This document shows positions 3,001 through 25,424 of a stretch of DNA of 31,626 nucleotides, in pieces. Position 1 is the first letter of the stretch. Each line of letters starts with the position of its first letter. The position numbers and the translations under genes are program-made. Below the pieces are notes generated by a model. That model saw only the letters and a program-made list of their open reading frames with translations. It did not search any database and had not been told where the DNA came from. The stretch covers positions 62,001 through 93,626 of the forward strand of contig MEDY01000163.1 in NCBI GenBank assembly GCA_001724265.1, given 5' to 3'. This stretch comes from Rhizaria sp. SCN 62-66 (lineage: Eukaryota).

Positions 3001-6000
3001 ATGGGAGCATATCATGGAGAGTGATGGAATTACGCCGGAAACTGACGCGCCAACAGCAATCACATCATTCCTGCCCTCTCCTGGAGTCACGCCCAAAGTA
3101 CCCTCGCGTGTGCAAGGCAAGGGGCATCGTACCACGAGGCGTAGGGTTGCGAAGTCGGCGATTACCGAGGTGAACTCAAGCAGCCCACTGCCTCCCCCTG
3201 TTTCACCCCCAGTTGGAGAGGACTCGACACCAGTTCCGAGTGAGCTCGTTGATGATGTTTCTGATGAGATAACAATAGTGCAGTACGATGTTACGACACC
3301 GCTACCACTGATTGTGTCACAATCCACTCCTGAGCCAAGCACGTTAACATCACCGCGTACTCCCGCAGGAGTTGCTCTTGGTGCAGTGCCAGTCACCGAC
3401 TCAGCACACAGGTCTCCGCTCGCAGTGCGTACTGATCATATTGCACACCGGATCCTCGCTCCAGCCAGCCCAAGTTTACTGTACGGTTTTAAGCTTGATT
3501 CTGACCGTGCTTCTTTTTCTTCGCTCCCATCCTGCGCGTTCAATCCTGACACGCTCACACGATCATACTCAGCCAACAAGGTCGGCCTGGGCCAGCCAGT
3601 TCTTGAGACTCCCAGGCTGCCGCGTGCGAGCACTCTTGTCGTCCTTGGCGCCACGCCAGCGGCCGGACCGCAACTCTCGTTCAGTGGTTCGCCAATCGTT
3701 GGAAGCTTGAATGCAATGCTAAGTCACTCTCAGTTGCCTCAGCGCCATCGCGCAAATTCACAGCAGCAACCTCGTTATGGGACCCAGCCTAAAGCGCGAG
3801 GGACTTCGATTCTTATTCCTGCTCAAGGCAACATCCACTCTGATGGTTTTGATGTGTTTGGCGCAAATGATGAGGCGAAATGGCGCACCGAGCGCGCGCT
3901 GTTGTATGCGTTTGACGCCTCCAATATACCAGTCTTGCCGCGCGCAGGTAGCGCGGTTTCTGATCTCCGTGATTGGACCAACATTACTCGACTAAAGGAC
4001 GAATCAACGGATCTTGACTTTGCTCAAAATGCGTTGGTGGAGCCTGGTAGTGATGAAGACGTCCAGGGAGCAACTACTGATGTGGCGCCTGCAAAGGCAA
4101 AAGACATTGCGGAAGGTGAGGCGAACAATGCTAGAGTTATGGCTGATTTTGCCAGTGCCACGGATGTTGGCTTATTAAGGAAGCATGACCAAAGTCTTAA
4201 TACCGGCAGCACAGGCACCAATGATACTCCTAAGAGCAACGAAGAGACAATGAGCTCCCTTCCGCAGTCAAAGAAATCTCGAAATTTGACTGCTAAGAGG
4301 AACATTGACGCAATGTTTTTTGAGGATGACGGCGAGACAACTGACGACCTGCGCCAGTACGGATTGAAGGTGGCATTCGATGAGTTGCGGGGATCTCGAT
4401 TAATCTGTGACGACTACACACTTGAGATGGAATACCTGATGGACAACGCTGATGCTGTCGCTGGAATCTATGCCGCAGAGTGCGAGTTTTCCACGCGTAC
4501 CGCTGTCCAAGGCTCAGTGACTCACACGGAGTGGACAAAGCAGTTTGAGGACTACCGCAATGATTCAGGCGACTTTGACGACGAGCGCATCAAGGCAGAC
4601 GCCGCTCTGCGCATTGACACCGCTGCATCAAGTTCGGATCTTGCAAACATATTACAAAGTGCAGCAGATATGCACAACGCATTTTCAGTTATGAGCGAGC
4701 CCATCGAGACGGTGTACGAAGCGGAAGTGCTGCGCGAACGCACTATTCGTTATGAACGCGCTGTTGAGCGTGCACGTGCGTACAAAAAATTGATGTGGTA
4801 CATTGCCACTTATGGTGACAACGAAGGGACAAAGCTGTATGAGCAAAGCCAAGAGCTGCGTGCAAAGGCAACAAAGCCACGATTGACTCATAATGAGATG
4901 CGTAAACGTCTGTACGCCGCAGAGTACACCTTGAACAATGTGTTCACCGAGTTCTCCGGCTACGTTATTACCGCTACTACCGTCGTTATGTTCATGATTC
5001 ACCCCAATATTACGCAACAATTCTTCATGGTGCTGTCCTGCAAGAGTATCGGCGGCACTGCAGACCCCGGCGCTAGCTTCATGCTCGGCGACCTGAGTGA
5101 GCCATGTTACTCACCGCAACACGTGATGTTTATCCTTGTGTTAGGTGTACCAATGTTGATTCTTTGGGTACTGGGAATTCCGTTGTTTGCGTTTGCAATT
5201 CTGTTTCGGAATCGCGCGCTAATTCAAGCACCAGCCGTCGGCACGTCTGACATTACGCGCGCTCAAAAGAGGAACTTTGAGTCACAAATGGCCTTTATGT
5301 ACCGCGGTTACAAGCCTACCCGGTACTATTGGTTCCTGAGCGAAATGTTCCGTAAGGCAGCATTGGTTGCAATCTCCGTCTTTTTCCCAGGTGCGCTACA
5401 TACGCAGCTTATGCTAGCGTCACTTCTGATCTTCGTTTGTATTTTATTGCAGATCTTCGGTCAGCCGTTCGAAAATCGCATTCCTGGTGCCGTGGAGTTC
5501 CTGTCACTGGGCACCTCATTCATGATCTTCTTCTTGGCAAATTTCCTTTTTGTGGACACAATATCGCACTCAGCAAAGGTTGCTGCAACCATGCTTATCT
5601 GTGTCCTTGTATTTGCCTTCTTTGTCGTCGTTGTCATTGCATTTATTGTGCTGCAGCGCGAGGAACTCAAGCTCGCCCCGTTGCGCCGCCGTTTACGCGA
5701 AGCGTACATTCACGGCCACGATATCGCGCAAGTCATGGCAAAGTGGCGCCAAGAGAAACTCCGGGAGAGGAAGCTTGCGCTTGAAAAGAAAGATCGTGCT
5801 GGTCCTGAACGTCTACCCGATCCCACCGTCCGTGATTCAGCCGTGGAAATCAAAAACAGTCCTGTTGATGTGACAGATAAGAAGCCGCATGCACGAGCTT
5901 TAGCTCATGCTACCCCGATCAGACTCCAGAATGAAACGCAGAACCATGTGATAAGTTCTGTGGACATCGGCAGTATGAGTAAGTCTGTTGCGCGTGGCCA

Positions 6001-6262
6001 TGACACGCTGTTGACAACAACATTCCACGGCCCCACCGCTTGGTCACGCACAATTGATGAGATTCGAGCACAATCTAACAATGGCGCAAGCACCACGCAT
6101 GCAACCAATGCAATTGGTGGTGGTGGGAGTCCGGCGACAGCTGCAATCGACGCTATTGCAGGTGCCTGTGAAAGGCGAAGGGCGATGAAACGCAATGAAA
6201 ACCCCGAGCTTGTAGTTCAGCTAGACTACAACGAAGAAGGCAACGGTGATAGAACGCCTTAA
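2..6262 (+). CDS. Large multi-pass membrane/surface protein, 5'-partial: IPT/TIG-like Ig domains, GCC2/GCC3 (ephrin-receptor-like) Cys-rich repeats, Cys-rich stalk and multi-TM region
   Basis: The frame is open to the window edge (gca gca agt aaa gag ctt gtg), so the GTG at 20 is probably not the real start. TIG-like motifs: 'LTVTGSGF...VIISGRQC...LTCLLP' and 'IALNGRNFG...VMVGGQNC...ITCTTPPG'. Repeated 'CxxCxxGxF/Y' units at ~1345-1750, then 'CLRGHTGNLCAVCEPGY'. Hydrophobic helices at ~2460-2840 and ~4960-5650, with 'FMYRGYKPTRYYWFLSEMFRK'. Stop TAA at 6260-6262. Confidence 0.88.
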   Translation, partial: AASKELVPGNTAGGQRIHFTVRSGVGLVTPFFSAVRYSNPDKMLYQDPELLLYECTEVEAVRATSVAEAAAGFSFYDVSCALSAGQGASLYLSVQYCVAVYGQAEPDCSRWNSNWQGTQAPDDLLHRDVNEGLRVTYPMPAFVRASLSSITPSGLTQRTSDYVSLTSLGEDVIMSVDNFYLKRPKLIAVSYGEGRDDSDFTYVCEFNLGIALLYSDTVLALSCRTQDGVNRIDLRFKLCIAGRCTISTDRYSYPQIPEVTSVTGCAVDDIVNGRTSECPTDSAGVRLTVTGSGFLEPLSVIISGRQCSAIDRHNNTYLTCLLPSSAGVGLPITIKAGSQRAESRNRITYTGPTITSIEGCDYVSNAEIRECHRLGGNTIALNGRNFGVTASTVMVGGQNCLNVTHDKFRPHERITCTTPPGSATERSVTLLQRSGLMSIDNILLSYVQCTPGMYGLDVSCLPCKVGYFNDMWSQNSCRQCEPGLYANKTGSTSCSICPAGYSSGLGAHTCQPCARGTFSGERSGSCLQCPPGTFAQHEGSSACEACALNAESNDDYTFCRCSVGSYLETNGECVACMLGGDCRVPGTTVFNVKSLPGYAPAVIRYARDSVIRMSLYYPASTATEEARKYARAAVSKLLYDNSELPMERIVFVDVIFETEGTLRAAANASAAASYNVSYRDMYAERIRYKIKSSLHDPRADDELVAVVKVDIYPDLRGAYAVANSTEALYTRILDQLVFNAILFGKSSNQTASTLTSDCVTRDVSFNHFATPEFELCINNACSGSNICLRGHTGNLCAVCEPGYGKSSSYECKRCNEPALRTFLLVLAVVAAIVVCGVLVWKQIIDGKQSMNELPAPAVPMLLKITTSGLQVMSIASRYELAWPGFLAGVFNAADTAGGVGTAFLSLDCFLSDSPTIRPFWVTTICIMILPLAGVLVPMGVFVPMYFTARNRYRANLIAEAVAERALAAEALIELRSLERQDRQATMQQRQKKMIVDSGLIWEHIMESDGITPETDAPTAITSFLPSPGVTPKVPSRVQGKGHRTTRRRVAKSAITEVNSSSPLPPPVSPPVGEDSTPVPSELVDDVSDEITIVQYDVTTPLPLIVSQSTPEPSTLTSPRTPAGVALGAVPVTDSAHRSPLAVRTDHIAHRILAPASPSLLYGFKLDSDRASFSSLPSCAFNPDTLTRSYSANKVGLGQPVLETPRLPRASTLVVLGATPAAGPQLSFSGSPIVGSLNAMLSHSQLPQRHRANSQQQPRYGTQPKARGTSILIPAQGNIHSDGFDVFGANDEAKWRTERALLYAFDASNIPVLPRAGSAVSDLRDWTNITRLKDESTDLDFAQNALVEPGSDEDVQGATTDVAPAKAKDIAEGEANNARVMADFASATDVGLLRKHDQSLNTGSTGTNDTPKSNEETMSSLPQSKKSRNLTAKRNIDAMFFEDDGETTDDLRQYGLKVAFDELRGSRLICDDYTLEMEYLMDNADAVAGIYAAECEFSTRTAVQGSVTHTEWTKQFEDYRNDSGDFDDERIKADAALRIDTAASSSDLANILQSAADMHNAFSVMSEPIETVYEAEVLRERTIRYERAVERARAYKKLMWYIATYGDNEGTKLYEQSQELRAKATKPRLTHNEMRKRLYAAEYTLNNVFTEFSGYVITATTVVMFMIHPNITQQFFMVLSCKSIGGTADPGASFMLGDLSEPCYSPQHVMFILVLGVPMLILWVLGIPLFAFAILFRNRALIQAPAVGTSDITRAQKRNFESQMAFMYRGYKPTRYYWFLSEMFRKAALVAISVFFPGALHTQLMLASLLIFVCILLQIFGQPFENRIPGAVEFLSLGTSFMIFFLANFLFVDTISHSAKVAATMLICVLVFAFFVVVVIAFIVLQREELKLAPLRRRLREAYIHGHDIAQVMAKWRQEKLRERKLALEKKDRAGPERLPDPTVRDSAVEIKNSPVDVTDKKPHARALAHATPIRLQNETQNHVISSVDIGSMSKSVARGHDTLLTTTFHGPTAWSRTIDEIRAQSNNGASTTHATNAIGGGGSPATAAIDAIAGACERRRAMKRNENPELVVQLDYNEEGNGDRTP

Positions 6263-7911: not shown

Positions 7912-8658
7912 TTAGCCCGTGCCCGAGAGGCTGGAGGCGGTGGCGAGGACCTTCCTGAGCAGCGAAAGCGACACTTCGACCTCGGCCCTGCACTCCTGCG
8001 TGTAGAGCGCGTTCTTGGTGACGACGATGAAGCTGCAGCGTTCGATGCGGTAGAGTGAGAGCGTGGTCTTATCGTTGCGCAGAGAGGTGGAGACGTGCAT
8101 GTCGCCGCGCTCGTGCATGACCATGACCTCCATGGCCAGGTCCAGCGTGCGCGCGTGGTGCGCCAGCGTGCCGTACTTGTCGATGTCCTGCGTGGCGTGC
8201 AGCACGCTGCTGCCCTGTGCGCTCGTCAGCAGCGCCAGCGCGACGCCGCGGTGCGCAGCCAGGTGGTCCAGGATCGGGCGCACCGTGTGCAGCAGCACCT
8301 CGGGGATGTCGGCGTTAAAGCTAACGTAGGCGTCGACCGAGGAGACCTTGTTCTCGAGCTCGGCCGAGAAGCGGACGACGAAGGTGCGCAGCAGCTCGTT
8401 GGCGATGAGCGACGCGAAGTCGGACCCGTCGGACGCGTCGACCACGACGATGACCTTGATCTGGCTGTTGTGGACGATGGCGACGCCGTGGGACGGGAGC
8501 TCGATGTAAGACACGCTCATGCCGGTGCGCTGAATGGAGAAGTCGACCATGGCGGTGATGATGGCGCCGAAGATGTCGGGCTGCACGTCTGTGCGGGCGA
8601 ACTCTTTGAGGAACAGCGTAGTGCCGCCGGCGGACACGATCATGATCTGCTGCAGCAT
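7912..8658 (-). CDS. Probable longin-domain protein with a roadblock/LAMTOR-like C-terminal domain (248 aa, intronless)
   Basis: ATG at 8658 (MLQQIMIVSAGGTTLFLKEF) coincides with the onset of strongly GC3-biased codons. The N-terminal 'hhh-x-x-GG-x-x-LF-x-K-x-F' hairpin, helix, three strands and helix resemble a longin fold. The C-terminal 'ILDHLAAHRGVALALLTS' resembles a roadblock start. Fold assignment is by eye. Confidence 0.7.
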   Translation of the reverse strand: MLQQIMIVSAGGTTLFLKEFARTDVQPDIFGAIITAMVDFSIQRTGMSVSYIELPSHGVAIVHNSQIKVIVVVDASDGSDFASLIANELLRTFVVRFSAELENKVSSVDAYVSFNADIPEVLLHTVRPILDHLAAHRGVALALLTSAQGSSVLHATQDIDKYGTLAHHARTLDLAMEVMVMHERGDMHVSTSLRNDKTTLSLYRIERCSFIVVTKNALYTQECRAEVEVSLSLLRKVLATASSLSGTG

Positions 8659-9762: not shown

Positions 9763-10503
9763 ATGCTGCGTTTGTCATCTCGTTTCACAGCGCCAGTGCG
9801 CTACGCCCTGCCTGCGCTGCCTTTTCCCGTCCGTTTATTCTCCACAGCGACGCCGACCGACGCCTCGACTCTTGCGCAGTCCGCTTCCGCCCCTGCGTCG
9901 CCCGCTGCAGCGCACAAGGACGCCGCCGCGTCCGCCGCGTCTGCTGAGGCTGCCGCGGCTGCCGCGGCCGCCAGCGGCTTCAGCGCGAGCCAGAACAACC
10001 CTGCCCCGGTGCAGCTTACGGGGCAGCAACAGTATGAGCTTAAGGTGCAGTATTACGCCGAGCAAGGTCCGTCACACCCAACACCAAAAGCTCTCAGCTC
10101 AATTTTACACCTTTCCCCTGCTCACTCTCTTTCACCACTCATATATTCCCTTATTGCGCTTGTTTTTGCTTTATCCCCAGAGCGACGCCTGGCGTCTGCG
10201 ATGGACCGCATGCGCAGCAGTTCTGGCACGATGGCGGGCGCCTACGCGGGCGCGGGCGGCGGCACGAGCGCGCTCACCCGCCGCCCCGGCCAGCGCAGCA
10301 AGGACGTTATGGCGCGCGTGCACGCCGCCATGGACTACAAGGCGCGCGTCACCGCTGTGCGCAAGGAGGAGGACGAGGCGCGCACGGCCAAGGAGACCGC
10401 CGAGGAGGAGGCGGCCGCGAACGCGACGCTGTTCGAGAAGGCCAGCGAGCGGGCCACCGACGCGTCGGGCAAGGCCAAGTCGTGGTTTAACAAGTTCTTT
10501 TGA
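9763..10503 (+). CDS. Hypothetical protein with predicted mitochondrial presequence, join(9763..10066,10181..10503), 208 aa
   Basis: The N-terminus MLRLSSRFTAPVRYALPALPFPVRLFST is Arg/Ser-rich, has no acidic residues, and contains an RxF|S cleavage-like motif. The GC-rich coding sequence is interrupted by a pyrimidine-rich GT..AG segment; splicing gives YYAEQ-E-RRL. The C-terminus is charged and helical. Confidence 0.75.
   Translation: MLRLSSRFTAPVRYALPALPFPVRLFSTATPTDASTLAQSASAPASPAAAHKDAAASAASAEAAAAAAAASGFSASQNNPAPVQLTGQQQYELKVQYYAEQGPSHPTPKALSSILHLSPAHSLSPLIYSLIALVFALSPERRLASAMDRMRSSSGTMAGAYAGAGGGTSALTRRPGQRSKDVMARVHAAMDYKARVTAVRKEEDEARTAKETAEEEAAANATLFEKASERATDASGKAKSWFNKFF
10067..10180 (+). 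other. Spliceosomal intron (114 nt, phase 1, length 3n, stop-free)
   Basis: G|GTCCGT donor and 'tgtttttgctttatccccAG' acceptor, with a sharp GC drop relative to the flanks. Confidence 0.8.
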
Positions 10504-10910
10504 ACTGAAGTCGGAACTAAAACATGATAACCACGTATATATTGACACAATAAAGTGGGCCATACGTTTTTATGTGGAAAACCCGTAATAGAGGCGAGAT
10601 ATACTCGTTTTAGTCTGCTGTGACTGTGGGCTTGTGCGCGACGTCGCTCTGCTGAACAGATCCGACTATCCGACCGAGTGGGGCAAGCACGCCAGCCAGA
10701 TTTTTTGAAATGCATAATCTCTGTCCCTTTAACATCAAGTGCGTTGAATTGACGATATTAGTGATTTAATTTTTACAGTATGCCCTTTTTTCTTTTTCTC
10801 ACCCCGATAACATGTTGGGAATGCTTCCAAATCTCACTCCTATCCACGTCGCTCCTTTCTCCGCTGCATGAACTTGCCCCCGCCTCACCGCTTCCAGGTA
10901 CACGCGCCCC

Positions 10911-13447
10911 ATGACGGCCCCGTCGTCGCAGTCGCGCGCCGCCCCCAACACCGCCGTGGGCTCCCCTGCCACGGGCGCCGCGCCCCAGAAGAAGCAGCCG
11001 AAGCGCTCTGGCGGCGGCTTCGGCCTGCTGACGGCGCTGACGGCCGCGGCCGCGATCGTGGCGGCCGTGCTGCTCAACGACGCCGTGCCCGACGCGCTGC
11101 TCACGCTCGCGGGCGGCAGCGCCGCGCCCGGCGGGCTGTTCCCGCGCGCGTTGCCCCCGCTGGAGGCCAGCTACCCCAAGGTGTTCCCCACGCACACCGT
11201 GGTTGGCGCTGTCGAGCGCGAGGAGTGGAACCCGTCCAAGCCGGTCGCGGCGCCGCTGCTCGCGGGCGGCAAGGCTAAGGTGCTCTCTAACACCTTCGTC
11301 AAGGACTGGGCCGCGATGAGCAAGTGGGATTTGTATTCCGCGTACTTCCCCGCGCGCCTGCCGCCCGTGCTGACGAACATCTACCGCGGCGCGACGCCCT
11401 ACTTCGGCCCGCTGTTCCGCCCCCACAAGCCCATGTACAAACAAGGCCCCAACGTCACCAAGTGGCACAACCCGCACGAGATTGTCCACATGGACACCAA
11501 GACGTTCTTCAACCGCGTCTCGGGTCGCGTGCCCCCGACCGAGCCCGAGGATGGGAAGCGCACATGGCTCTACTACACCGGCGACCTCAACGCGCCCTTC
11601 CTCTCCAAGTACGTTCATCAAAACACGACGCATCTCTCCTATTAAATGCTTATCGGGAAATGAGTATTCAATTTCCGTTTAATTTCGTATTATAAATCCG
11701 TTTGTAAAAGATTTCCATGCAGCAATCCAATCCAATCTAATATCATTTATTGCCTTTTTTTATTCTCGTTCTTACACTCTCTTGATATGTCAACAGGGAC
11801 CTTGAGCCGTGGCGCGAGCTGATCCCCCGCCCCGAGGGCCAGCGCATCAACGTCTGGGTCTCGGACAAGGGCGTGACGACGCACCTGCACATCGACGGCT
11901 TCGACAACTTCTTCGTGCAGATCCAGGGCACGAAGCGCATGCTTCTCTTCCCACCCGAGCAGAGCGTCAACTCGGGCTTCTACCCCTTCACGCACCCGTC
12001 CTTCGGCCAGTGCCACGCGCACCTCCCGGGCACGCCCACGGTTGCCAAGTACGCCAACGAGCCCTCGGCCTACGCGCCGCCTAACCGGGCCTTGCTCGCC
12101 GTCGCGCGCGCCGTCAAGGCCGCCTCGCTGGCCGCCAAGCGACAGGTCCGCCTGCTCCAGACCGCAATCGGCGGCGCGGTGAGCAAGGCGCTGGCGGCGC
12201 TGAACCTCGACGCTGCGGCGAGCGCGGACCCGGCCACGCGCGCCGCCGCGGCTGCCGCCAAGGCTACCGCGACAGGCGCCACCGCCAAGGACGCCGAGGA
12301 GGCGAGCGCGGAGGAGAGCTTCCTGAGCGACATGACCGCGCCCTACGAGCCCATTTACCGCACGCCCAAGTGCAACCTGACCGACACGACGTACCCCTCT
12401 GCGGCAACGAGCCAGACGATGGCGGGCGAGGCGGCGCGCATCCCGGCTGCGAAGCACCTGCAGGGCTACGAGGTGCTGCTCAACCCCGGGGACCTACTCT
12501 ACATCCCGCCCAACTGGATGCACTACGTCGAGACGCTTACCCCCTCCATCTCGGTCAACTTCTGGACGCAGGTATGTCAGGGCGCTTGCGCATCCATCGT
12601 AAACAACAGGATTGGACTGCTATAATAACATTGAATGCCTCTTCATTTCACTGAGCTCACTTTTTGCTGTGATATCATCTTTTGTTCTTTTGCTGTTCGT
12701 TTGTTCCCTCTACAGGCGCGCTCGCAGCCGCGCTACGACGCGGCGATCCGACTGGTTGTGAGCCACGCTGTGCACGACTGGACGCTGAGCCAGAAGCGTT
12801 TCGCCGTCGCGCTCATCCTCAACGGGCTCCTCACTGAGCCCAAGATCTCGGCCGCCTTCCCCGTGCTGGGCAAGACGGACGTCGCGCGCGCCAACAAGAA
12901 GTTCGCCTCGCACGGGACCAACATCGTCGACTTCGACGCCGACGACGAGGACAGCGACACGGTCGTCAAGCGCTTCATCAAGCAGCACGTGCTGTCTCGC
13001 TTCGAGCCTCTCATTGCCAACGGCGAGGCCGCGATTAAGGCCGCCACGCTCGACGACTGCGGCTTCGACTCCGAGCTCTCGATGCCCGAGTCCAACGCGC
13101 GGTCGCACGCGCAGCTGCTGCAGCTCGTCGGGCTGATTCCCGCTGAGGCCGCCGCCGAAGCCATGGCGCAGGCCGAGCTTGAGGACGCCGGCTTCGACGA
13201 GAATGGCCGCCGCATCAACCCCAACAGCGACGCCAAGATCACCATGGACAAGGTCTACCGCGGGCTGGGCGAGCTGGCCGTCAAGATCGCCAAGGAGTTC
13301 GTCCAGGTGCCTGCCCGCGAGCGCCATGTGTGGGTGGGCAACTTCGCCGAGTCTCTGGCCTACTGGGCGTCGGACCCCGCGGGCGAGCAGACGGCCACCG
13401 TGCTCCACTGCCTCGCCAACTTCAAGGTCGACGTCTCGCGCAACTGA
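10911..13447 (+). CDS. JmjC/Cupin_8 family Fe(II)/2-oxoglutarate oxygenase, join(10911..11608,11797..12571,12716..13447), 734 aa
   Basis: The spliced frame is continuous. Motifs: '[36 protein letters not shown]' (HxD) and '[32 protein letters not shown]' (distal His). N-terminal hydrophobic segment [19 protein letters not shown]. Confidence 0.92.
11609..11796 (+). other. Intron 1 of the JmjC gene (188 nt, phase 2)
   Basis: AA|GTACGT ... pyrimidine tract ... caacAG|G. AT-rich; removal restores the frame (SK-DLEPW). Confidence 0.9.
12572..12715 (+). other. Intron 2 of the JmjC gene (144 nt, phase 0)
   Basis: CAG|GTATGT ... ttgttccctctacAG|GCG. Contains an in-frame stop; removal joins ORFs 11873 and 12635 in frame. 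Confidence 0.9.
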
Positions 13448-13836
13448 GCACGGAGCACTGAGCCAGATATGGACGAGAGCTTAGATTGCAAAGTGATGTC
13501 TTGTACGCAGTGCTACTAAGCTGAGCGCAAGTCAGTTTACCGTGAGGTAACGGGCCAAGTGCTTATCGGTCGAGTCGCAACAGCCTAGCTGTGTGGTGTT
13601 TTATTTTGATTTGTTTTGTTGTGTTAGTCACGTATGAGATGTGCTATATGACACTTATACTAACTTAAAATACTCACTTACATCCGTTTTTATTTTATCA
13701 CGAAGGTACTAACTACAATACGTCTAATTATATATCGACGATTTCTCTTCTATTTGTCACACTATGACAACTAGCAATACAAAAGATCGCGTCTATTTGT
13801 TTCAACAGTCCTCGACCACTTCTATGGAGGTATGAA

Positions 13837-13859
13837 GTCACATGTTTTAAACATGTGAC
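13837..13859. repeat. Inverted repeat with 11-bp perfect arms and a 1-nt spacer
   Basis: gtcacatgttt-t-aaacatgtgac, intergenic between convergent genes. Confidence 0.85.
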
Positions 13860-14787
13860 CTTGGTGACAGTAGTACGTAGTACGGATTAAGCTCGCATTT
13901 GTCGTTTTTGCAACGTGCTAACGCACGAGAGACTTATCAGGCCAACTTAACACGATCACCTCTGTGTGTCTCAGTACAGTATCTAGGTGACGAGGTGTCA
14001 ACAAGCAAAATCCGGGTGATGTTCACGCGTTTATGAAGGATTTTAGAGTGGCTATTTATACTTACAGGTATGCATGTGAATTTTGAGTAGTATATAATAA
14101 AGCGGATTATTATATACTACTTTTGATTTTATGTCTGTTCATTTCAATTCAGCTACCTTGCGGAGTTCAAATCACTTTTACAATTAAGCAGCGTGACTGT
14201 TCAAATGCAAACTTGAGTTCATATATATTAATAACGATTGTTGTATGTAAGAATAGTATACGCCCGGGGCAAAATAGACAACTTTGAGCTTTGACACGAT
14301 AAAGCACACTCAAGCGATGCCGAGGTACATGTAAATAATATAAAACTTTCATTGTTATTGATAGTAGAGGTGCAGCCCTGTGGCTGATACCTAACTTCTG
14401 ATAACCTATTTTAATTTTCTAATAACAGCGTTTGTGTGGTGCATGCTATGAAAGCAGAATAGCAACGAGTCCTTATAACACACCAGAGTTGTGTCGTTTG
14501 AAGTTGCGAGGGCATAACAGTGAGCCGAACATGCAACACTCGCACCAAAGTGAGTGTTCGTTGTCCTCTTTGTTTAATCACTGCTCGCCAGAGCAAACAC
14601 AATGCTTGTTTGTGAGTCTATATCGGCCATGATAATTCAGCAATCAGCCACACGCTATGACTAAGACTGCAACTGCGTTCGTCACGACTATATGACTGAT
14701 TGGCAGTGATTGTGTGAATCCCTCAGAGCTCAGCAGCGACCCGCGCCACCCGTGAGCCTTGCGCGCGCTTGCCTGGCGCCGGCGCGC

Positions 14788-16546
14788 TTACTTGGTGCGC
14801 TTACGCGGGGCGAGGATGGGCCTGCCAGCAGACGACACCTTGCCCGCCGTGCCCAGGTTGAACCCCCCGGCCGCGGGGCCGCCGAAGGCCGGCGCGGCCG
14901 CCACGGGCCCACCGAAGGCCGGCACGGCGGCGGGGGCACCGAAGGACGCCGCGGGGGGCTGGCCGAACGTGGGCGCGGCGGCGCCGAAGGCCGGGGCGGG
15001 CTGCCCGAAGGTGGGGGGCTGGCCGAAGGCGGGGGCCTGCGCTGGGGCGCCGAACGTGGCCGCCCCCGCCTTCGGCCAGCAACCCCAGTTCGGCCAGGCC
15101 GCGCCCGCCTTCGGGCAGACCGCCCCGCCGCCGAACGCGGGCGCGGGGGTCTGGCCAAAGGTGGGCGCAGGCGCGGCCTGACCAAACGCAGAAGAGCCGC
15201 CGAAGCCGCTGGCGGCGGGGGGCGGGACGCCGAAGGCGGCGGGCTTGGCCTGGACTCCGAACGCGGGAGCCTGGGCCTGGGCCGGGGCGGGGACGCCAAA
15301 CGCGGGGGTGGCGGCGCCGAAGACGGGGGCCTGCGCGGGCGGGGGCACGCCGAAGCCCGTCGCGGGGGCGGGGGGGATGGCCTGGGGGGGAGCCGGCACG
15401 CCGAAGCCGTTCGGGGGCTTACCAAACGCAGAGGGGGCGGCGCCGAACGTAGGGGCCGCGGCCGGGGCACCGAACGTGGGTGTAGGGGCGGCGGCGGCGT
15501 TGGCGGCGTTGGCGGCCCCAAAGGTGAAGCCGGGCGTGGGGGCGGTGCCGAAGGTCGGCACGGCAGCGGCGGCGGGGGCGGGAGCGGTGGCAGGGGCACC
15601 GAAGGAGAAGGTGGCGGCCGGGGCGGCGGCAGCGGCGGCGGGGGGGGGGGGCTTGAGGCCGAACACGGGGGTCGCCGAGGCGCCCGCAGTGGCGGCCGCG
15701 GGGGGCACGCCGAAAGCCGGCGCGGAGGGAGCGGCGGGCGCGGCGGTGGCGGCGGTGGCGCCGAAGGAGAAGGTCGGGGCGGGGACAGGGACAGGAGCGG
15801 GGGCGGCGGCGGCGGGGGCGGGGGTGACGGGCTTGGCGGCGCCGAAGACGAAGCCCGCGGCGGGGGCAGTGCCGAACAGCGGCGCAGCAGCCGCTGGGGC
15901 CGCAGCCGCAGTGGCTGGGGCAGCGACGGGCGCGGTTGCGGTGGCGGCGCCTGGGGTGGCACCGGCGGCAGGGACGGGGCCGCCGACACCGAACTTAAAC
16001 GCGGCCACCACGGGGGGCTTGGGGGTCTCGGCGCCGCTGCTGGCGCTCGTCGCGAGCGCGGGCGCAGGCGTCGTCGTCGCAGTACCAGCAGCAGCACCAG
16101 CAGGGGCGGCGATGGTAGCGGCGGCGGTGCTGGGGGCAGCGAAAGAGAACTTAGGCGCGGCCGCAGCAGCGGGTGCGGCTGGAGCGGCAGCAGTCGCGGC
16201 GTCGGCGGGCTTGGGAGCGCCGAAGCTGAACTTTACAGCAGGTGCGCCGACAGCAGAAGGAGCAGCAGCAGGAGCAACAGCAGCAGCGGCGGCGGCGGCA
16301 CCAGCAGCGGCGGCGGCGCCAGCGGCGGGCTTCTCGGGGGTCGCAGGGCGGCGGATGGTGAAGGTGCGGGCGGGGGGCGCAGGCGAGTCGCTGTCACTGT
16401 CACTGCCGCCGCCGCTGCCGCCGGCGGCCTTGGCGGGCTTGCTGGGGGTGGTGCCGGCGGCGGAGGGGTTGAGAGAGGCGAGGCATGCAGAGTGCTCGAA
16501 CTCGTCCATGCCGTTCTTGCACACGGGACAGTTCTTCGGGCCGGCC

Positions 16547-16582
<36 letters not shown>

Positions 16583-19500
16583 GGCGCCGCAACAGCAGCG
16601 GCGGGGGCGGGCTTGGCGGCGCCGCCGCCGAAGGAGAACTTTGGGGCAGCAGCAGCAGCGCCGGGCGCGACAGCAGGGGCGGCGGCAGCGGTGGTGGAGC
16701 TGGAGCTGTCGGTGCTCGCGGCAACGGGCTTGGGGGCACCGAAGCTGAAGGCAGGCTTGGCGGGCGTCGCCGCGTCGCCCTCCTTGTCCTTGCTGGCACT
16801 CGCACTCGAGCTACCATTGGTCGCAACATTAGTCGTGGCAGTGGTAGTAATAGGTTTGGGGGTGGTGCCGGGGGCGAAGAACTTGAACGACGGCTTCGTC
16901 ACATCCCCGTCCATGTCGTTGTCCGCGCTACTTGCCGGCGTCGCGGTCGCGGCAGCAATGACAGTGGCGGGCTTGGCAGCGGGGGGCATGAAGCTGAACG
17001 ACGGCTGCTTCGCCGCAGGCTTGGGGCCGCCAAGCGCGACCTCCTCCTCGCTCTCCTCCCCGGCGCCCTTGCTCCCACCAGAGGCGGCGGCGCCGAAGGA
17101 GAAGCTGGGCATGGCGCGCTTCACCTGCGGCCCCGCCAGCCCTCCGCGCGCGCTCGCACTGCCAACGGGATCAGGGCTAGCGGCGGCGGCGGTCGCGGCG
17201 GTTGAGTTGTTATCCGCGGAGCGCTTGGCGACGGTGAAGAGCGACTTGGACGGCGGGGCGTCGCTGTCACTGTCAGCCCCCCCGGCGGCGGCGGCGCGGG
17301 CCTTGCCCGCCTCGCCGCACCAGCTGTGGTCGAAGTCCTCCAGCGAGTTCTTGCAGTCGGGGCACACGCCCGTCTTCTTCGGGGGCGAGTCGGGGATGTG
17401 CTTGATAGGCTTGTCGGGCAGCTGAAACTTGGGCTTGAAGCCGGCAGGGGCGGGGGCGGGGACAGCGGGGGCCGCGGCGGCGCCCGTGGTAGCGGGCTTG
17501 AGAGCGCCGAAGCTGAAGGCGGACTTGGCGGCGCTGGGGCTGGTGACGGCAGACTCGGCGGGCTTGGCCGCGGGGGCACCGAAGCTGAAGCTGGGCTTCG
17601 CAGCAGCGGCAGGGGCAGCGGCGGCGGGGGCGGCGGGAGACTTGTCGGCGGCGGCGGCGGCGGTGGCGGGGCGGGCGATGGTGAAGGTCTTCGGGGGAGG
17701 GATGTCGTCGTCGCTGGCACTGCCCGCACCAGCGGCAGCGCCGGCCTTAGCCGCAGCACCGGCGCCAGCGGCAGCGCCGGGCTTGGCGCCTGGCTTGCAC
17801 CAGCTGTGGTCGAAGTCCTCGAGGCTGTTTTGGCACACGGGGCAGTCGCCGACCTTTTTCGGCGAGTCGGGGATGTGCTTGATGGGCTTGTCAGGTAGCT
17901 GGAACTTGGGCTTGAAGCCAGGGGCAGCGGGGGCCGGGGCCGGGACAGAAGCCGTGGCGGTGGCGGGCTTGGCGGCGGGGACGCCGAAGCTGAAGGTAGG
18001 GGCCTTGGCGGCAGCAGCAGGAGCAGCGGTACTAGAAGCGGAGTCGGCGGGCTTGGGGGCGCCGAAGCTGAACTTTGGCACAGCGGCAGAGGCAGTCTCC
18101 GTCGCAGGCTTGGCAGCAGCAGCGGCGGCAGCGGGGGCGCCGAAGCTGAAGTTCGGCTTGGCTGCAGCAGCGCCAGCGCCGGCAGTCGCAGTCGCCGCGG
18201 CCGCCGTGGCCGCCGCGGCGACGGCAGCGGCGCTGCTGTTGCTGTTGCTGCCGGCGCCGGCGCTGGGCACGGCCTTGGCGAAGGTCTTGGGCGGGGGCAC
18301 GTCGTCGTCGTCGCTGCCGCTGAGGGCGAGGGCGTCGTCGTCGGAGCTGCCCGCGCCCGCCTTGCCGCAGCGGCTGTGATCGAAGTCCTCCAGCGAGGTC
18401 TTGCAGATGGCGCAGTCGCCGACCTTTTTGGGCGAGTCGGGGATGTGCTTGATCGGCTTGTCGGGCAGCTGGAACTTAGGCTTGAAGCCGGCCGGCGCCG
18501 GGGCGGGGGCGGGGGCGGCGGCCGCGGCGGGAGCGCTAGTGGGAGGCTTGGCGCCGAATGAGAACGCAGGCGCCGCAGCAGGGGCAGCAGCAGTAGTAGA
18601 GGCGGGCTTTGAGGCGCCGAAGACAAAGCCGGCGCCGGGGGCAGTACCGAACAGCGGCGCAGCAGCAGCGGGGGCCGCCGCAGCAGCAGCAGCCGCAGCG
18701 GCGGGAGCAGCGGCAGGAGAAGCGGCGCTGATCGCGACGGGCTTGAAGGTGTCCGAGCCCACGTCGACCTTGTCGCTCGCCTTACCAGCACTCGCACTCG
18801 AGCTCGCGGAGGCAACCGCGGCGGCAGTGGCAGCGGCGGCGCCCGCGATGCTTGTGCTGGTGTTGCCGACGCGCCCGAAGAGCGGCGCTGGCGCGGCGGG
18901 CAGGAGGAAACGCAGCGGCGTGCGCGCGGCCTTGGCCGAGACCAGCGGCGTCGACAGGCGCTCCAGCGACGACAGGATACGCTTCGCCGTGGACGATGCC
19001 GACGCCGACGCGGCGGCTGCGGGGGCGGCGGGATGGTTGGGGCTGGGGAGGGAAACGAGGGCGCCGGAGCTACCGTGGGAGCCGTGGGGGCCGGGGGTGG
19101 CGGTGGTGGTCTGGGGACGCGCGAACGAGCGACGACCGCCAGAGGAGCCGACGCCTCCGCTGCTGCCGCCGCTGGCGCTGTTGCGTGCGCGCGAGGGGGA
19201 GACGAAGGAGAAGGATTTGGGGTTGACCTGGAGGTTGGCGAAGACGGAGGCGCCGCCCGCGAAGGGCAGCAATAGACTAGCACCGCCCGTGGCCGCGTGG
19301 CGGTACACGATGGGCGTGTGCAGCGCCGCGCCGGGGCCCGAGCCGGCCGCGGTGGTCAGGCTCACGTCGCCGCCATCGGTCGCAGCGGCGTGGGAGCCGG
19401 CGGCGGGCAGGAAGCCCACGTGCGGATGGCGACGGCGCGAGCGCTGGGTGATCTCGCCCTCCTCCTCGCGCGCGTCGTCGTCGCCGTCGTTGTCGTCGCC

Positions 19501-19776
19501 GTGGGCGGCGCCGCCGTGCCCACCGTCGCCGGAGTCGAGGTCGAGGCGCGCGGGGGCGAACGAAGACTCGCGGGCGCGCTTGGGCCTGCTCCCGACAGCA
19601 GCGTTTGCGGTGGCAGGGCCGCCGGGCGTGCGGAGCGGCGGGAACAGCGAGGCGTACGTGGCCTGGGCCTTGGGCATCGGGGAGGGCGCGATGGGCGTTG
19701 CCGCCGCGGGGGCGGGCGCGCGGGCCACGGAACGCAGCGCTGCGTGCGAGTGGTGGAACGAGAAGGAACGGTCCAT
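14788..19776 (-). CDS. NUP153: Nuclear-basket FG nucleoporin, Nup153/Nup1/Nup136-like (1662 aa, single exon as seen)
   Basis: Many FSFG/FxFG and PAFG/PTFG repeats. 'STAKRILSSLERLSTPL' (~18943-18993) resembles the Nup153 N-terminal RILxSLEKMSSPL motif. The basic C-terminus 'GRPILAPRKRTK' resembles the Nup153/Nup1 tail. The gene symbol is inferred from these motifs. Confidence 0.82.
16483..18489 (-). repeat. Four copies of a C-x2-C-x8-H-x2-C module; three are preceded by GFKPKFQLPDKPIKHIPDSP
   Basis: CAICKTSLEDFDHSRC (18367-18414), CPVCQNSLEDFDHSWC (17797-17844), CPDCKNSLEDFDHSWC (17317-17364), CPVCKNGMDEFEHSAC (16483-16530). Confidence 0.9.
16547..16581 (-). repeat. (GCT)n coding microsatellite encoding poly-Ala in the nucleoporin
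   Basis: Run of about 11 gca units on the + strand. Confidence 0.85.
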
Positions 19777-20389
19777 CAGAGAAGCAGGAGTGACGCAGCG
19801 GTTGCTGTCGTGTGTGATGTCTTTCTTTCTTTGCTTTGTGCGCGGGTAGTAGACGCGCAGAAAGAGGGCGCGGAGACGCGGGTGTGGTTGAAAGAGTGAG
19901 GGAGTTTACAGCGCCTACTCGGGCGAGCGCTAAAGTAAAGGCATGAGTGACAGATGCGGGCAATGAGGAAGATTGGTGGAGGGCGGTTGGGACGTGAGCA
20001 AGAGTAGGACGAGGGATGCAATGTTCACGCACAACACTGTCACTAATTGAGTTTGAGTCAGATGATAAGATACTAACAAGCACAAATTATTCTAAAATAG
20101 CAAAATAATTTCAATTGGCGTTTGAATAATAGCACCAGACACTTCGCTAGATCAGCTCAGCGAGCCGCTGCGACTGCGGTTGGGAGGTGACCGTGCGCAC
20201 CGCCAGCCGTCTGGGTCGAAAAATAGTCACCGTCCACGAAGTGTCGAGCAACAAAAAAATATATCAGTTACACATAATTAAGGCAAATCAAGATTCCATA
20301 AAAGAATAACCCATCTTAGCTCATTGTGTATGCATAGCTATTTGTATTAATTCTCCAGAGTCGTATCTAAAAGTCTCGCACAGTGTGCA

Positions 20390-20805: not shown

Positions 20806-23800
20806 TTAGTTGAAGCTGCTGCCGCCGTTGTTCGCCGCCCAGGCCTGGAGGCGGCGGCGCGTGCCCAGCGGCTTGATGAGCTCAGCCCAGTCGGCCTCCT
20901 TGAGCAGCAGCAGGTCCTCGGGCTCGGTGATGCCGTTCTCCTTGAACACGCCGAGGCACGTCTCGGCGCGCAGGGCCAGACACAGATCCTCCAGCGCGCT
21001 CGTCTTGCTGGCGGGCGCCGACAGCGCGAGACCGGCGCCGGAGCCCTCGCCGCTGGCGGAGGCGTTGGCAGCCGCGGCGGCGGCGGCGGCGGCGTCGGCC
21101 TCGGCCTGCAGCAGCTGCGCGGCCGCGGCGGCCTTCTTGGCGTCCTTGCTCGCGCGCTTGGCGGCGTTGCTGTTGCCCGCCGCGGCTGCCGCGGTGGCCT
21201 GAAGCAGCGCGACGACCTGGTCCGCGTTCTTCTCCTGCGCGTAGTCGAGCGCGGCCTTGCCGTCGTAGGCCGGCTTGCGCCAGTCGGCGCCACAGTCGAT
21301 GAGCATGCGGACGGCGTCGAGGCGGCCCAGCGAGGCGGCGTGCACGAGCGCCGTGCGGCCGAGCTTGTCCGTCTGGTTGATGCCGACACGCCCGAGGCGG
21401 ATGAGCACCGCCATCGACTCGATGTTGCCCCACGCCGCGGCGCGGACGAGCGGCGTGGCGCCCTCGTAGTTCTGGATGTCGACGTCGGCCTTAGCATTGA
21501 TGAGCATGGCCAGCGCCTCGTAGTGCCCGCGGAAGGCCGCCACGTGCAGCGCCGTGTTGCCGTGCTCGCCGACGGCGTTGACGTCCGCCTTGGCCTCCAT
21601 CAGGATCTGCAGGCTGTCGTGGTTGCGCCACACGTTGTTGTTCCAGTACATGGTCCGGATTAGCGGCGTGTGGCCGTGCACGTTGGCCAGGTCCACGCTC
21701 GCGCGCGCCTTGAGCAGCAGCCGCACGCAGTCCGGGTACCCGCGGTCCGCCGCGTGCAGCAGCGCCGTAGCGCCGCCCTCGCCGCGGACGTCCACGCGCG
21801 CCTTGCGGGTCAGCAGCAGCGACACGATGTCCGAGTGCCCGCCCTAGGAAAGAGAGAGAGCAAGCGAACGCAGGAAGAAAGAGATAAAGGATGGTATATG
21901 TGAGATTTGAGAAGAGTGATACATCATTGAAGTATATAGACATGAAATAAATATAAGTATACATAAAGTACAATGAAGACGTCTTATAACGTTGAGATAT
22001 CTTTGCTTAAAGCAAATGCACGTACCTGGACCGCGGCGGAGAGCGCGGTGGAGCCGGCCTCACCGAGCGCGTTGACGCTGGCCTTGGCATCGAGCAACGC
22101 GCGAACGCAGGCCAGCTGGCCGGTCTGCGCGGCGCGCAGCAGCGCCGTGGCGCCGTACTTGTCGCGGGACTCTAGCGAGGCACCGGCGCGCAGCAGGCGG
22201 GAAACGACGCTGGCGTGGCCCTGGCGCGCGGCCGCGATGAGCGGGCTCGACGTGGCGGGGCCGGCCGCGGCGTCGAGCGCCGAGCCGTCGAGCGCGACCG
22301 CGATACCGTCGACGTTGGCGCCCGACTCGAGCAGCACGCTGACCATCGAGTCGAAGCCCTGGCGCGCGGCGTGCGTGAGCGCCGTCTCGCCGCCGTCGTC
22401 GGCCAGGTCGGGGTGCGCAGCGCACTCGAGCAGGCGCCGCGCGCACAGTACGTGGTTGCTCATCGCTGTCGACATGAGCGCCGTCGCGCCGCGCGTGTTG
22501 CGCGTGTTGATGAAGTCGCGCAGCAGCACGGGCGCGTTCTGGTACCGCGCCGCCGCGTTGGACAGCGCGCTCCGCGTCAGGCCCGTGATGTAGCTCGTCG
22601 TCGCGCCCGCGTTGCTGCAGACGCCGCTGTTGTCACCGGTAGCAGAGGCGGGGAAGAAGCTACCATTGCCGCTGCCGTTGGCGTCCGCGTGGGTGGCGCT
22701 GAGACTGGCGGCGACCAGCGAGGCCGCAGCGGCCACGGTCGCGGCGGCGGCGGGCGAGGGCAGGTTCACACCGCTCAGCCCGGCGCGCGCGGTCGCCGCC
22801 GCGAGCGCCGCCGCCGACTCCTTGCTGGCCGCGGCGTCCGCGGTGGCGCCGCCGCTTGCGCCGCTGGAGAGGGGGACGAAGACCGATGGCAGCAGGGGCG
22901 CCGTGGCCGAGGGGCGCTCGCCAGAAGGCTGCTTGTTGGCCCCGGGCCCCTCGGTGGCCTCGGCCGCGGCGGCGTCAGCTGCGGCATCGGCCGCGTCGGC
23001 CGTCACGGACGAGCCCGAGAGAGTCGCCGTGGCAGTCGCTGCGGCCGAGGGCGGCTGCAGCGGGAGCCCGGTGGCGGGGGCGCAGTTGCTCGAGCTGGCC
23101 GCGGCGACGTTGGCGGCGTGCAGCGCGGCCGCGGCGGCCGTGACAGACTCGGACGTGATCGAGTTCTTGCGGCGCCGCTGCCCGCCGTCGTACGTGGGCG
23201 CGTTCTCGGCCGCCTCATTTTCGGGCTCCTCCTCGTCCTCCACCAGAAGCGCGGCGGCGGCGGCGGCGGCGGCGGCCTTGGAGCCGCCCTTGTGGTGCAG
23301 GTTGAGGCTCGACTTGGAGCGCGTCATCGTCAGCGCGCCGAGGGACCCCGCGACCGCGCCGGCGCCAGAGGCAGCAGTGCTGGAGCTCGCGCTCGGGTCA
23401 GCAGAGCCGGCGCCGGGGGCGGCGGTGGCGGTGTTGGCGCTGGCGCCGCGGGCGCTGGCGGCCGACGCCGCGCCGCCGCTGCTGGCGCTGGGGACGAAGT
23501 CGGACTCGTAGCCCTGGAGGATGGCGAAGACGTGCTCCAGCAGCTGCTCGGGAGTCGCGGCCGCGCCCGCCGTCGCCGCGGCAAAGGGCGCGGTGAGGGC
23601 CGAGGAGGAGGACGACGACTGGCCGGCGCCGTTGCTGAGGGTGGCGAGGCCGGAGATGTTTGCGGCGAGCCCGGCCTTTGCGGCGACGACGAGCAGCAGC
23701 TGTTGCGCGACGCCGTCGTTGCCGTTCTCGCACGCAAAATGCAGCGCCGTGTTGCCCAGGTCGTCGCGCCGCGTGCAGTCCGCGCCCTCGCGCAGCAGCA

Positions 23801-25380
23801 GCGCCGAGCAGCGCTCGAAGCCCGCCTTGGCGGTCGACATCAGCGCCGTCGTGCCGAACCGGTTGACCGTGTCGACCTGGGGCTTGGGCGAGAAGCTCAA
23901 CAGCAGCTTGACGCAGCGCACGCGGCCCTCGCGCGCGGCCAGGATCAGCGCCGTGGAGCCGAACTGGTCGGGGTAGTCGATCCAGTGCCGGTGCTCGCCG
24001 CGCGCGAAAGCGCCGTAGCCGGCCCCGTTGCGCAGCCGCCCGCGCGCGAGCTCCAGCGTGAGCGCCACGTGGTTGCCCGTGACGGCCGCGCGGCGCAGCG
24101 CGGCGCAGTCCTCGGTGGCCCGCTGCAGCAGCGGCTGCGCCACGGCGCTCGTGGTGCGCCGCCCGCCAGCGCTCCCGGCCGCGGCGGCGTTGGCGGCGGT
24201 GGCCGCGGGCGCGGTGAGCGGGCCCGCGGTGACCGAGGGCGCGGCGGCGCTGGCGAGCGAGAGCCCGCTGTACGCGTTACCGCCGCTGCCGACGGGCGCG
24301 CCAGCGGTGTGGAGCAGCGGCATGGGCACGAGCGAGGCCACCGAGGCGCCGCGCGAGAAGGCCGGGGGCGCGGCGGCCAGGAGGCGGCGCGCGGCGGCCA
24401 CCGAGGAGCCGGCCGCAGGGGCCGCAGCGGTCAGCGCGGTCGCCGCCGGGGACAGCGCCTGCAGCGACAAGGCGCCGTTGCCCGCGCTGGCGGCGTTGGC
24501 CGAGGCGGCAGCGGCTGCGTTGTTGGTGGCGAAGAGCGAGGCGAGGGGGATGTAGCCGAGCTCGATGGCGATGTCGCGCGCGGACCGGCCGTCGCAGTCG
24601 CGCAGCGCCTCGTCCGCGCCGTGCGCCAGGAGCACCTGCACGATCTCGTAGTGGCCGCCCGCCGCGGCCATCATAAGCACGGTGCGCCCTGCCAGGTCGG
24701 TGTGGTCCGCGAAGGCGCCATGGGCGAGCAGCTGCGTCACGCAGTCCATGTTGCCCCAGGTGGCGGCGCGCATGAGCGCCGTGCAGCCCTCGACGTCCTG
24801 GAGCTCGACGTCGGCGCCGACCTGCAGCAGGCGGCCCACGCAGCGCGAGTGCCCGCGGGTCGCCGCGATGATCAGCGCCGTCGAGCCAGAGTGCGACTGC
24901 ATGTTGACGTCGGCGCCGGCGGCGAGGAGCAGGTTGAAGGCCTCCTCGTTGGCCCACTTAGTCTTGTTCCACACCGTAGCGCGCATCAGCGCCGTCTGAC
25001 CGAACTGGTTCACCAGGTCGGGCGCCGCGTTGGCGTCGAGTAGCGCGCGGACGACGGCGCCGTGCCCGCGGTCCGCGGCCCACATGAGCGCCGTGGAGCC
25101 TTCCGAGTCTTGGAGGTCGGTCTGCGCGTGGAAGCGAAGCAGCATGGCCACGCCGTCCAGGTCGCCGATGATGGAGCACACGATGAGCGGCGTCGCCATG
25201 TCGCCGTCGTAGCCCTCGGGGACGTCGCTGGGCCGCAGCATCACGCGCTCCTCCTCGCGCTCCGGCGCGGCCTGCTCCGGCTGGCCCGACTGCTGCTGCA
25301 TGGCGCCGCTGGGCACGAGCGCGCGGGGCGAGGCGACGACAAGGGCGGTGCTGCTCGCGTCGGCGGGACTGCCATTGCCG

Positions 25381-25424
<44 letters not shown>

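What the first reader, a model, noticed from the sequence alone, without database searches (positions are those of the whole stretch)
15059..15126. ~68-bp micro-inversion inside the FG-repeat domain
Seen: the minus-strand protein suddenly reads 'GAVCPKAGAAWPNWGCWPKAGAA', with Trp and Cys out of place among FG repeats. The plus strand of this segment reads AAPAFGQQPQFGQAAPAFGQTAP. Flipping 15059-15126 restores an in-frame '...AFGG-AAPAFGQQPQFGQAAPAFGQTAP-TFGAPAQ...'. The segment forms a perfect 19-bp inverted repeat with its neighbour (15018-15036 / 15062-15080) and an 11-bp one (15001-15011 / 15108-15118). Inference: either a frame-preserving template-switch inversion that removes three FG motifs, or an assembly/consensus artefact. 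Exact breakpoints are uncertain by a few bases.
Basis: seen in the sequence. Interest (0 to 1): 0.75.

Follow-up and report, generated by a model that had tools for sequence, protein, structure and literature searches.

The report
Flipped 68-base stretch in nucleoporin gene
In an uncultured wastewater protist, a 68-base piece of a nuclear-pore protein gene is flipped end for end in one population and unflipped in another, a real but probably harmless copying or repair accident of a known kind that rewrites 21 amino acids at once.

Summary
Window 15059-15126 is an in-place inversion in the C-terminal FG domain of a 1662-aa Nup153/Nup1-like ORF (14788-19776, minus strand). Independently assembled contigs of two DNA runs span both junctions in the window's orientation with no differences. 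A contig from a poly(A) RNA run of another study carries the segment un-inverted, at exactly these coordinates, with one linked synonymous SNP. An assembly artefact is therefore unlikely. The best reading is a recent, strain-level micro-inversion. It changes 21 of 23 residues, removes 3 of 46 FG motifs, and creates a strong mRNA hairpin (z = -5.6). The 19-bp and 11-bp inverted repeats are by-products of flipping a tandem repeat, not causes. The junctions share only 1 nt, so this is not the usual inverted-repeat spacer inversion. A 12-bp palindrome is centred on the right breakpoint of the un-inverted allele. Open points: no matched DNA and RNA from one population, the left junction of the un-inverted allele was not bridged, and the lineage was not determined. 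Known kind of mutation, unusually large for coding DNA.

The parts
14788..19776 (-). ORF of a 1662-aa FG nucleoporin with Nup153/Nup1-like layout (start = first ATG, inferred; introns not excluded)
   Evidence: Nucleoporin_FG E 2.3e-4 but below cut-off; atlas leads under 0.9; RNA run X6 covers the stop codon and 3' flank, 14675-14885
15059..15126 (+). 68-bp segment inverted in place (equivalent: 15060-15125); alters residues 1551-1573, 21 of 23 changed, three FG motifs lost, three Trp and two Cys gained
   Evidence: opposite orientation in X6 record 25, window orientation in X1 record 1 and X3 record 9
15018..15036 (.). outer arm of the perfect 19-bp inverted repeat (partner 15062-15080); a direct repeat in the un-inverted allele
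15001..15011 (.). outer arm of the perfect 11-bp inverted repeat (partner 15108-15118)
14984..15114 (-). 53-nt, 83% complementary arms (14984-15036 / 15062-15114); with a second stem towards 15170-15180 they give a predicted mRNA structure of -151.8 kcal/mol over 211 nt, against -92.1 for the un-inverted allele
   Evidence: z -5.59, 0 of 200 shuffles as good; control stretch 15200-15410 z +1.31
15127..15132 (+). hexamer identical to 15059-15064; in the un-inverted allele the two form a perfect 12-bp palindrome centred exactly on the right breakpoint
   Evidence: the only centre with arms of 6 or more among 1070 positions of the FG domain, 6 of 4970 in the ORF; junction bridged by X6 record 25
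15157..15157 (+). synonymous difference (third position of a Phe codon) on the same X6 contig as the un-inverted segment; marks another haplotype
   Evidence: single contig of depth 4.5
16483..18414 (-). four CxxC-x8-HxxC modules (residues 455, 645, 805, 1083) where Nup153 has its zinc fingers

Best explanation
A real, recent, one-off inversion in place of 68 bp in the germ-line DNA of one population of this protist; the window carries the derived allele. SHOWN: both orientations exist; the breakpoints; no loss or gain of bases at the right junction; no junction homology beyond 1 nt. INFERRED, direction: the un-inverted form is ancestral, because its codons continue the FG array. INFERRED, mechanism (about 0.5 within this reading): a replication or repair polymerase stalled or met a break, most likely at the short palindrome on the right breakpoint, copied 68 nt from the opposite strand and returned (type 1-3-2-4, without flanking repeats). 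Excision at two breaks with end-joining in reverse is the next candidate (about 0.3). INFERRED, why it persists: the length is unchanged, no stop arises, the antisense register is the one of three that stays low in charge and rich in Ala, Pro and Gly, three Phe are traded for three Trp, 43 of 46 FG motifs and the basic C-terminal tail remain, and FG domains are redundant. It is probably near-neutral.
For:: X1 record 1 (24055 nt, depth 29.4) covers 14200-15658 and X3 record 9 (2661 nt, depth 7.2) covers 14200-15345, both in window orientation with 0 other letters and 0 gaps. X6 record 25 (248 nt, depth 4.5) has the segment reversed and bridges the right junction with 68 and 170 letters. X6 differs by 2 letters in 603 (records 24, 25, 28). 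X4, of the same study as X6, differs by 3 letters in two pieces of 444 and 215 nt, so that study holds a slightly diverged haplotype. Codon scan. Junction homology of 1 nt, as in 714 of 950 random placements with 0-1 nt. Palindrome. Register classes give 8%, 31% and 41% charged residues; the observed class is the 8% one. PMC2172579 (passages): yeast Nup1 and Nup159 FG domains can be deleted or swapped without loss of bulk transport.
Against: Only 4 of 14 listed runs could be laid, and 3 of these 4 cover the site. Orientation is fully confounded with run type: both DNA runs inverted, the one RNA run not. The un-inverted form rests on one contig of depth under 5. Its first 10 letters were not shown, so the left junction is inferred, not bridged. 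X1 may be the window's source. X3 equals X2 in size and share and may be the same data as a sample of X1's study, so the inverted allele may be known from one population only. Contigs drop rare variants and the joint table was cut (95 rows not shown), so a minor un-inverted allele in X1 or X3 is not excluded. No mechanism is shown: PMC8755829 argues that both two close breaks and homology-poor template switches are unlikely. The register match has a 1-in-3 chance. The palindrome was noticed after the fact (roughly 0.005 before correction for looking). No orthologue was found to polarise the change.
Confidence: 0.86

Rival explanations
1. Assembly or library artefact: the true gene is un-inverted everywhere and the window is misassembled or chimeric.
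For: The segment is 80% G+C repeat sequence. The un-inverted form exists (X6). Only contigs, no raw reads, could be laid. X1 may be the source run.
Against: Contigs of two runs from a separate assembly pipeline span both junctions in window orientation, unbroken, with no differences, at depths 29.4 and 7.2. There is no flanking inverted repeat that could let a graph assembler flip the piece.
Confidence: 0.04
2. Programmed or reversible rearrangement: the DNA holds the segment inverted and it is re-oriented in expressing cells or in the RNA (unscrambling or a switch).
For: Both DNA runs that cover the site show one orientation and the one RNA run shows the other, which restores the FG array exactly.
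Against: The RNA contig carries a linked synonymous difference, T to C on the coding strand, and X4 of the same study has three more, so it is another haplotype. There are no pointer repeats or recombinase-type sites at the junctions. No second such segment in nine ORFs. No recombinase family in six long ORFs scanned.
Confidence: 0.03
3. The un-inverted X6 contig is itself an artefact (reverse-transcriptase switch on the hairpin, or misassembly) and the whole species carries the inversion.
For: One contig, depth 4.5. The inverted mRNA would fold strongly. The left junction is not bridged.
Against: The switch point equals, to the base, the breakpoint predicted from the protein alone, and it restores the FG register. 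A chance switch would have no reason to do so. Even then the inversion in the DNA would be real.
Confidence: 0.03
4. Real inversion, but of the ordinary inverted-repeat spacer type, guided by the 7-bp inverted repeat near the ends (15046-15052 / 15123-15129 of the un-inverted allele), with slippage at the junctions.
For: Such a repeat exists. PMC8755829 accepts repeats a few bases off the boundaries.
Against: The offsets are unequal (6 nt outside on the left, 4 nt inside on the right), so a plain spacer flip gives a different product. 81 of 950 random placements find 7 bp or more within the same tolerance.
Confidence: 0.04

Closest known systems
Short-range template-switch events of type 1-3-2-4, 'inversion in place' (PMC5453318; PMC7954356; bioRxiv 10.1101/2021.11.26.470150; passages read)
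   Same: A fragment is replaced by its exact reverse complement without a copied repeat, and the change segregates within a species.
   Different: It lies in coding DNA and is tolerated in frame. In the human haplotype survey 24 of 2200 loci were coding, and of three examined one was false and one real case gave an early stop. PMC7954356 withdraws the earlier claim that this is the commonest type.
Human-chimpanzee microinversions (PMC8755829; parts 1-4 of 5 read, supplements not)
   Same: Pure, precise inversion of under 100 bp.
   Different: All 59 there were 17-33 nt (search range to 40), all flanked by inverted repeats of 3-75 nt, and none touched coding sequence. Here: 68 nt, 1 nt of junction homology, coding.
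Inverted-repeat spacer inversions in yeast genes (PMC8604942; passages read)
   Same: Protein change through a small inversion, differing between strains of one species.
   Different: Spacers there were 2-5 bp between arms of more than 9 bp, with at most five residues changed. Here 21 residues change and there are no arms.
Human polymorphic micro-inversions under 100 bp (PMC7658078; passages read)
   Same: Size class and polymorphism.
   Different: 30 of 2140 regions overlapped coding sequence; their effect on proteins is in a supplement that I did not read.
Nup153 (vertebrates), with Nup1 and NUP136 as functional counterparts
   Same: Unique N-terminal region, metal-finger region, FG-rich C-terminal domain with charged proximal and uncharged distal linkers, short basic tail (layout from PMC3679279, passages).
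   Different: The fingers are CxxC-x8-HxxC and dispersed, not tandem RanBP2-type; there is no match to PF00641 or PF08604.

Membership tests
Inversion in place (four-point type 1-3-2-4) | Segment equals the exact reverse complement of the other allele's segment | tested here: met
   X6 record 25, 68 letters, 0 other letters, 0 gaps
Inversion in place (four-point type 1-3-2-4) | No duplicated or deleted sequence at the junctions; flanks nearly identical between alleles | tested here: inconclusive
   Met on the right (contiguous; 1 difference in 170 nt). On the left only 10 letters, not shown
Inversion in place (four-point type 1-3-2-4) | Origin by polymerase template switch during replication | not testable with these tools
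   The product alone does not separate a switch from two breaks and end-joining
Inverted-repeat-flanked spacer microinversion | Inverted repeat of 3 nt or more at the boundaries of the inverted segment | tested here: not met
   1 nt; nearest 7-bp pair is offset unequally and is matched by 81 of 950 random placements
Site-specific invertible switch or programmed unscrambling | Recombination sites or pointer repeats at both ends | tested here: not met
Site-specific invertible switch or programmed unscrambling | Both orientations within one population, or DNA and RNA of one population differing | tested here: inconclusive
   One orientation per run among the rows shown; contigs drop rare variants; no matched DNA and RNA
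Nup153/Nup1 basket nucleoporins | FG-rich C-terminal domain | tested here: met
   32 FG in the last 400 residues of the un-inverted form, 29 in the window; PF13634 E 2.3e-4, 22.4 bits, below the 32.2 cut-off
Nup153/Nup1 basket nucleoporins | RanBP2-type zinc fingers (PF00641; vertebrate Nup153) | tested here: not met
   No PF00641 hit; modules are CxxC-x8-HxxC; atlas points to RanBP2-finger and Nup153 clusters at 0.78-0.84 only, a lead
Nup153/Nup1 basket nucleoporins | Nup153 N-terminal domain (PF08604) | tested here: not met
   No hit at E up to 10 for two N-terminal pieces; no PDB relative
Nup153/Nup1 basket nucleoporins | Terminal importin-alpha site; location at the nuclear basket | not testable with these tools
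   A basic tail ends the ORF; binding and location untested. The protein is filed as Nup153-like in layout, not as a member

The most novel reading that the evidence does not exclude
The orientation tracks the molecule, not the strain: this protist stores the segment inverted in DNA and re-orients it, without pointer repeats, in expressing nuclei or in the transcript, so that the mature mRNA encodes the intact FG array. Every DNA run that covers the site is inverted and the only RNA run is not, so my data do not exclude this. A linked synonymous difference and the lack of junction signals argue against it.
Probability: 0.03. Interest if true: 0.92.

Novelty: new member of a known kind. Interest (0 to 1): 0.36.

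Why it matters
As it stands this is a clean natural example, with both alleles in hand, of a micro-inversion that rewrites 21 residues of a nucleoporin in one step and has no flanking inverted repeat. That departs from the pattern in the great-ape and yeast surveys I read, where repeats were always present and coding changes were at most five residues. It shows how G+C-rich, disordered FG domains can take up antisense-derived peptide, and how flipping part of a tandem repeat makes a long mRNA hairpin at once. It is one event in one uncultured organism with no phenotype, so it changes no model by itself. It would matter much more if matched DNA and RNA disagreed.

Tried and rejected
No whole genome is held for this window, so no genome-wide count of such inversions was possible. 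Orthologue searches for the nucleoporin found nothing: C-terminal 192 residues against shorter proteins, 0 of 8000 candidates; finger region by phmmer, 0 hits in 1.84 billion representatives; JGI metagenome scan, 0 of 596 stretches confirmed; 27-nt pattern in viral contigs, 0. A synteny route through the neighbouring gene 7915-8658 gave 6 proteins at 47-100% identity but one locus of only 1041 nt. The cluster look-up that could have named relatives could not be made, so the lineage stays undetermined. X4 does not cover the site; this is no evidence either way. The 7952-7998 peak of the 15-codon scan was rejected as an inversion, because relatives align through it. A blunt cut at the hexamer on the right breakpoint by a restriction-type enzyme (enzyme class recalled) was rejected: the second such site lies 10 nt from the left breakpoint, and the domain holds eight. 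A G-quadruplex-like run ends 24 nt from the left breakpoint, but there are five in 1.3 kb. The palindrome supplies no homology for either switch (reasoned). The model of one finger module was uninformative (pLDDT 63.5, pTM 0.26), so no fold search was run; the PDB profile search gave only E above 2. Support for Trp replacing Phe is weak: bioRxiv 10.1101/090159 tested Trp in reporters entering FG gels, not in FG domains. bioRxiv 10.1101/2021.03.20.435662 (passages) added only that NUP136 is the proposed counterpart of Nup153. The scan's own notes hold nothing for this genome or look-alikes.

Full report
Setting. The window comes from a G+C-rich eukaryote. Runs that hold much of 10500-19900 are labelled bioreactor, wastewater and activated-sludge metagenomes (14 runs listed, 3 with half the words or more). 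The lineage could not be determined. The finding lies in a minus-strand ORF, 14788-19776, of 1662 residues from its first ATG. It has 46 FG motifs in the un-inverted form, four CxxC-x8-HxxC modules and a basic tail. This is the layout of Nup153 as described in PMC3679279 (passages). No Pfam family passes its cut-off, the fingers are not of RanBP2 type, and the atlas leads score under 0.9. I therefore call it Nup153/Nup1-like, not a member.

Observation. The odd peptide, the plus-strand FG reading and both perfect inverted repeats are as described. A scan that knew nothing of the claim ranked 15059-15126 first of 7554 windows of 22 codons for antisense-like codon use; with 15-codon windows it came second among non-overlapping peaks. 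GC skew reverses in the segment. No other convincing inversion appeared in the nine ORFs scanned.

Real or artefact. Four of the 14 runs were laid on 14200-16300; all are contigs, not raw reads. X1 (possibly the source; 24055-nt contig, depth 29.4) and X3 (2661-nt contig, depth 7.2) cross both junctions in the window's orientation with no differences. X4 does not cover the site. X6, a poly(A) RNA run of another study, has a 248-nt contig of depth 4.5: its letters 11-78 lie on 15059-15126 minus and its letters 79-248 on 15127-15296 plus. The only equivalent breakpoint pair is 15060/15125. The same contig has one synonymous difference at 15157, and X4 of the same study has three differences in the 3' flank, so that study holds a haplotype roughly 0.3-0.5% diverged. 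Limits: the left junction of the un-inverted allele is not bridged (10 letters, not shown); X3 may duplicate X2 from X1's study; the tables were cut, so minor alleles are not excluded; and orientation is confounded with DNA versus RNA.

What the inverted repeats mean. They do not flank the segment. In coding sense, the segment and its neighbour are two diverged copies of the FG repeat, differing at 9 of 53 positions but keeping all three FG codon pairs. The 19-mer is the longest exact direct repeat of the un-inverted domain, and 100 of 630 simulated 68-bp inversions create a 19-bp inverted repeat. So the segment evolved in sense orientation and was flipped recently, and the repeats are a consequence of the flip. 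The practical result is a predicted mRNA structure of -151.8 kcal/mol over 211 nt (z -5.59), against -92.1 for the un-inverted allele and z +1.31 for a neighbouring control stretch. Whether it affects expression is untested.

Mechanism. Junction homology is 1 nt, as in most random placements (714 of 950 have 0-1 nt). A 7-bp inverted pair near the ends is unequally offset and is matched by 81 of 950 placements. The classical spacer inversion, in which all 59 human-chimpanzee cases had flanking repeats (PMC8755829), therefore does not fit. The product does match type 1-3-2-4 of the four-point model, which only inverts a fragment (PMC5453318). One feature stands out: in the un-inverted allele a perfect 12-bp palindrome is centred on the right breakpoint. 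It is the only one with 6-bp arms among 1070 positions of the domain, and one of 6 in 4970 in the ORF. It gives no homology for either switch, so at most it marks a stall or nick site; it was noticed after the fact. I favour a homology-poor template switch started there (about 0.5) over two breaks with reverse end-joining (about 0.3). Neither is shown.

Why it is tolerated (inference). An in-place inversion keeps the downstream frame, and 941 of 1070 simulated 68-bp inversions in this domain make no stop. Of the three possible registers, the observed one gives 8% charged residues on average, against 31% and 41%, and trades three Phe for three Trp; this has a 1-in-3 chance and is only consistent with selection. 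43 of 46 FG motifs and the tail remain. In yeast whole FG domains of Nup1 and Nup159 can be removed without loss of bulk transport (PMC2172579, passages). No RNA with the inverted allele was seen, so its expression is not shown.

Comparison and novelty. Micro-inversions under 100 bp, polymorphic and occasionally coding, are known. In the papers I read, coding cases were rare, or limited to 2-5 bp spacers and five residues. Five literature searches listed no micro-inversion in an FG nucleoporin; the library lacks most subscription journals, and I read no supplements, which may hold larger coding cases. Two earlier findings of this scan describe 89-bp and 130-bp inversions in dead prokaryotic genes between 8-11-bp inverted repeats (unchecked). 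This case differs in lying in an apparently intact gene and lacking such repeats. Verdict: real, a new member of a known kind, somewhat unusual in size, coding position and lack of flanking repeats. Interest 0.36. The DNA-versus-RNA reading is not excluded but is unlikely (0.03).

Noticed in passing
window 16483-18414 (-): Four CxxC-x8-HxxC modules in the place of Nup153's RanBP2 fingers; the first three are 70-77% identical to each other's first copy and share a basic linker. No Pfam family above cut-off, no relative among 1.84 billion representatives, low-confidence model. Possibly an undescribed finger type in a basket nucleoporin.
   Followed up: partly
window about 18870-18940 (-): A short predicted-helix-like motif near residue 280-300 of the nucleoporin recalls a conserved N-terminal motif of Nup153 (resemblance recalled, not from a call); Pfam and PDB searches did not confirm it.
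   Followed up: partly
window 7915-8658 (-): 248-aa conserved protein with no Pfam family, but relatives at 47-89% identity in five other clusters; looks like a longin-type fold by eye (recalled, untested).
   Followed up: partly
window 2-6262 (+): Long receptor-like ORF (TIG and ephrin-receptor-like repeats) at about 50% G+C, whereas the other coding regions are 60-80%.
   Followed up: no
window 21984-30973 (-): SPX fragment followed by many ankyrin repeats with very long low-complexity insertions; layout reminiscent of Pho81-type proteins (recalled); exon structure not worked out.
   Followed up: no
window 10872-13447 (+): Intron-split JmjC/cupin-8 gene with an Ala-rich insertion inside the domain; closest other protein 64% identical over 28% of the query.
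   Followed up: no
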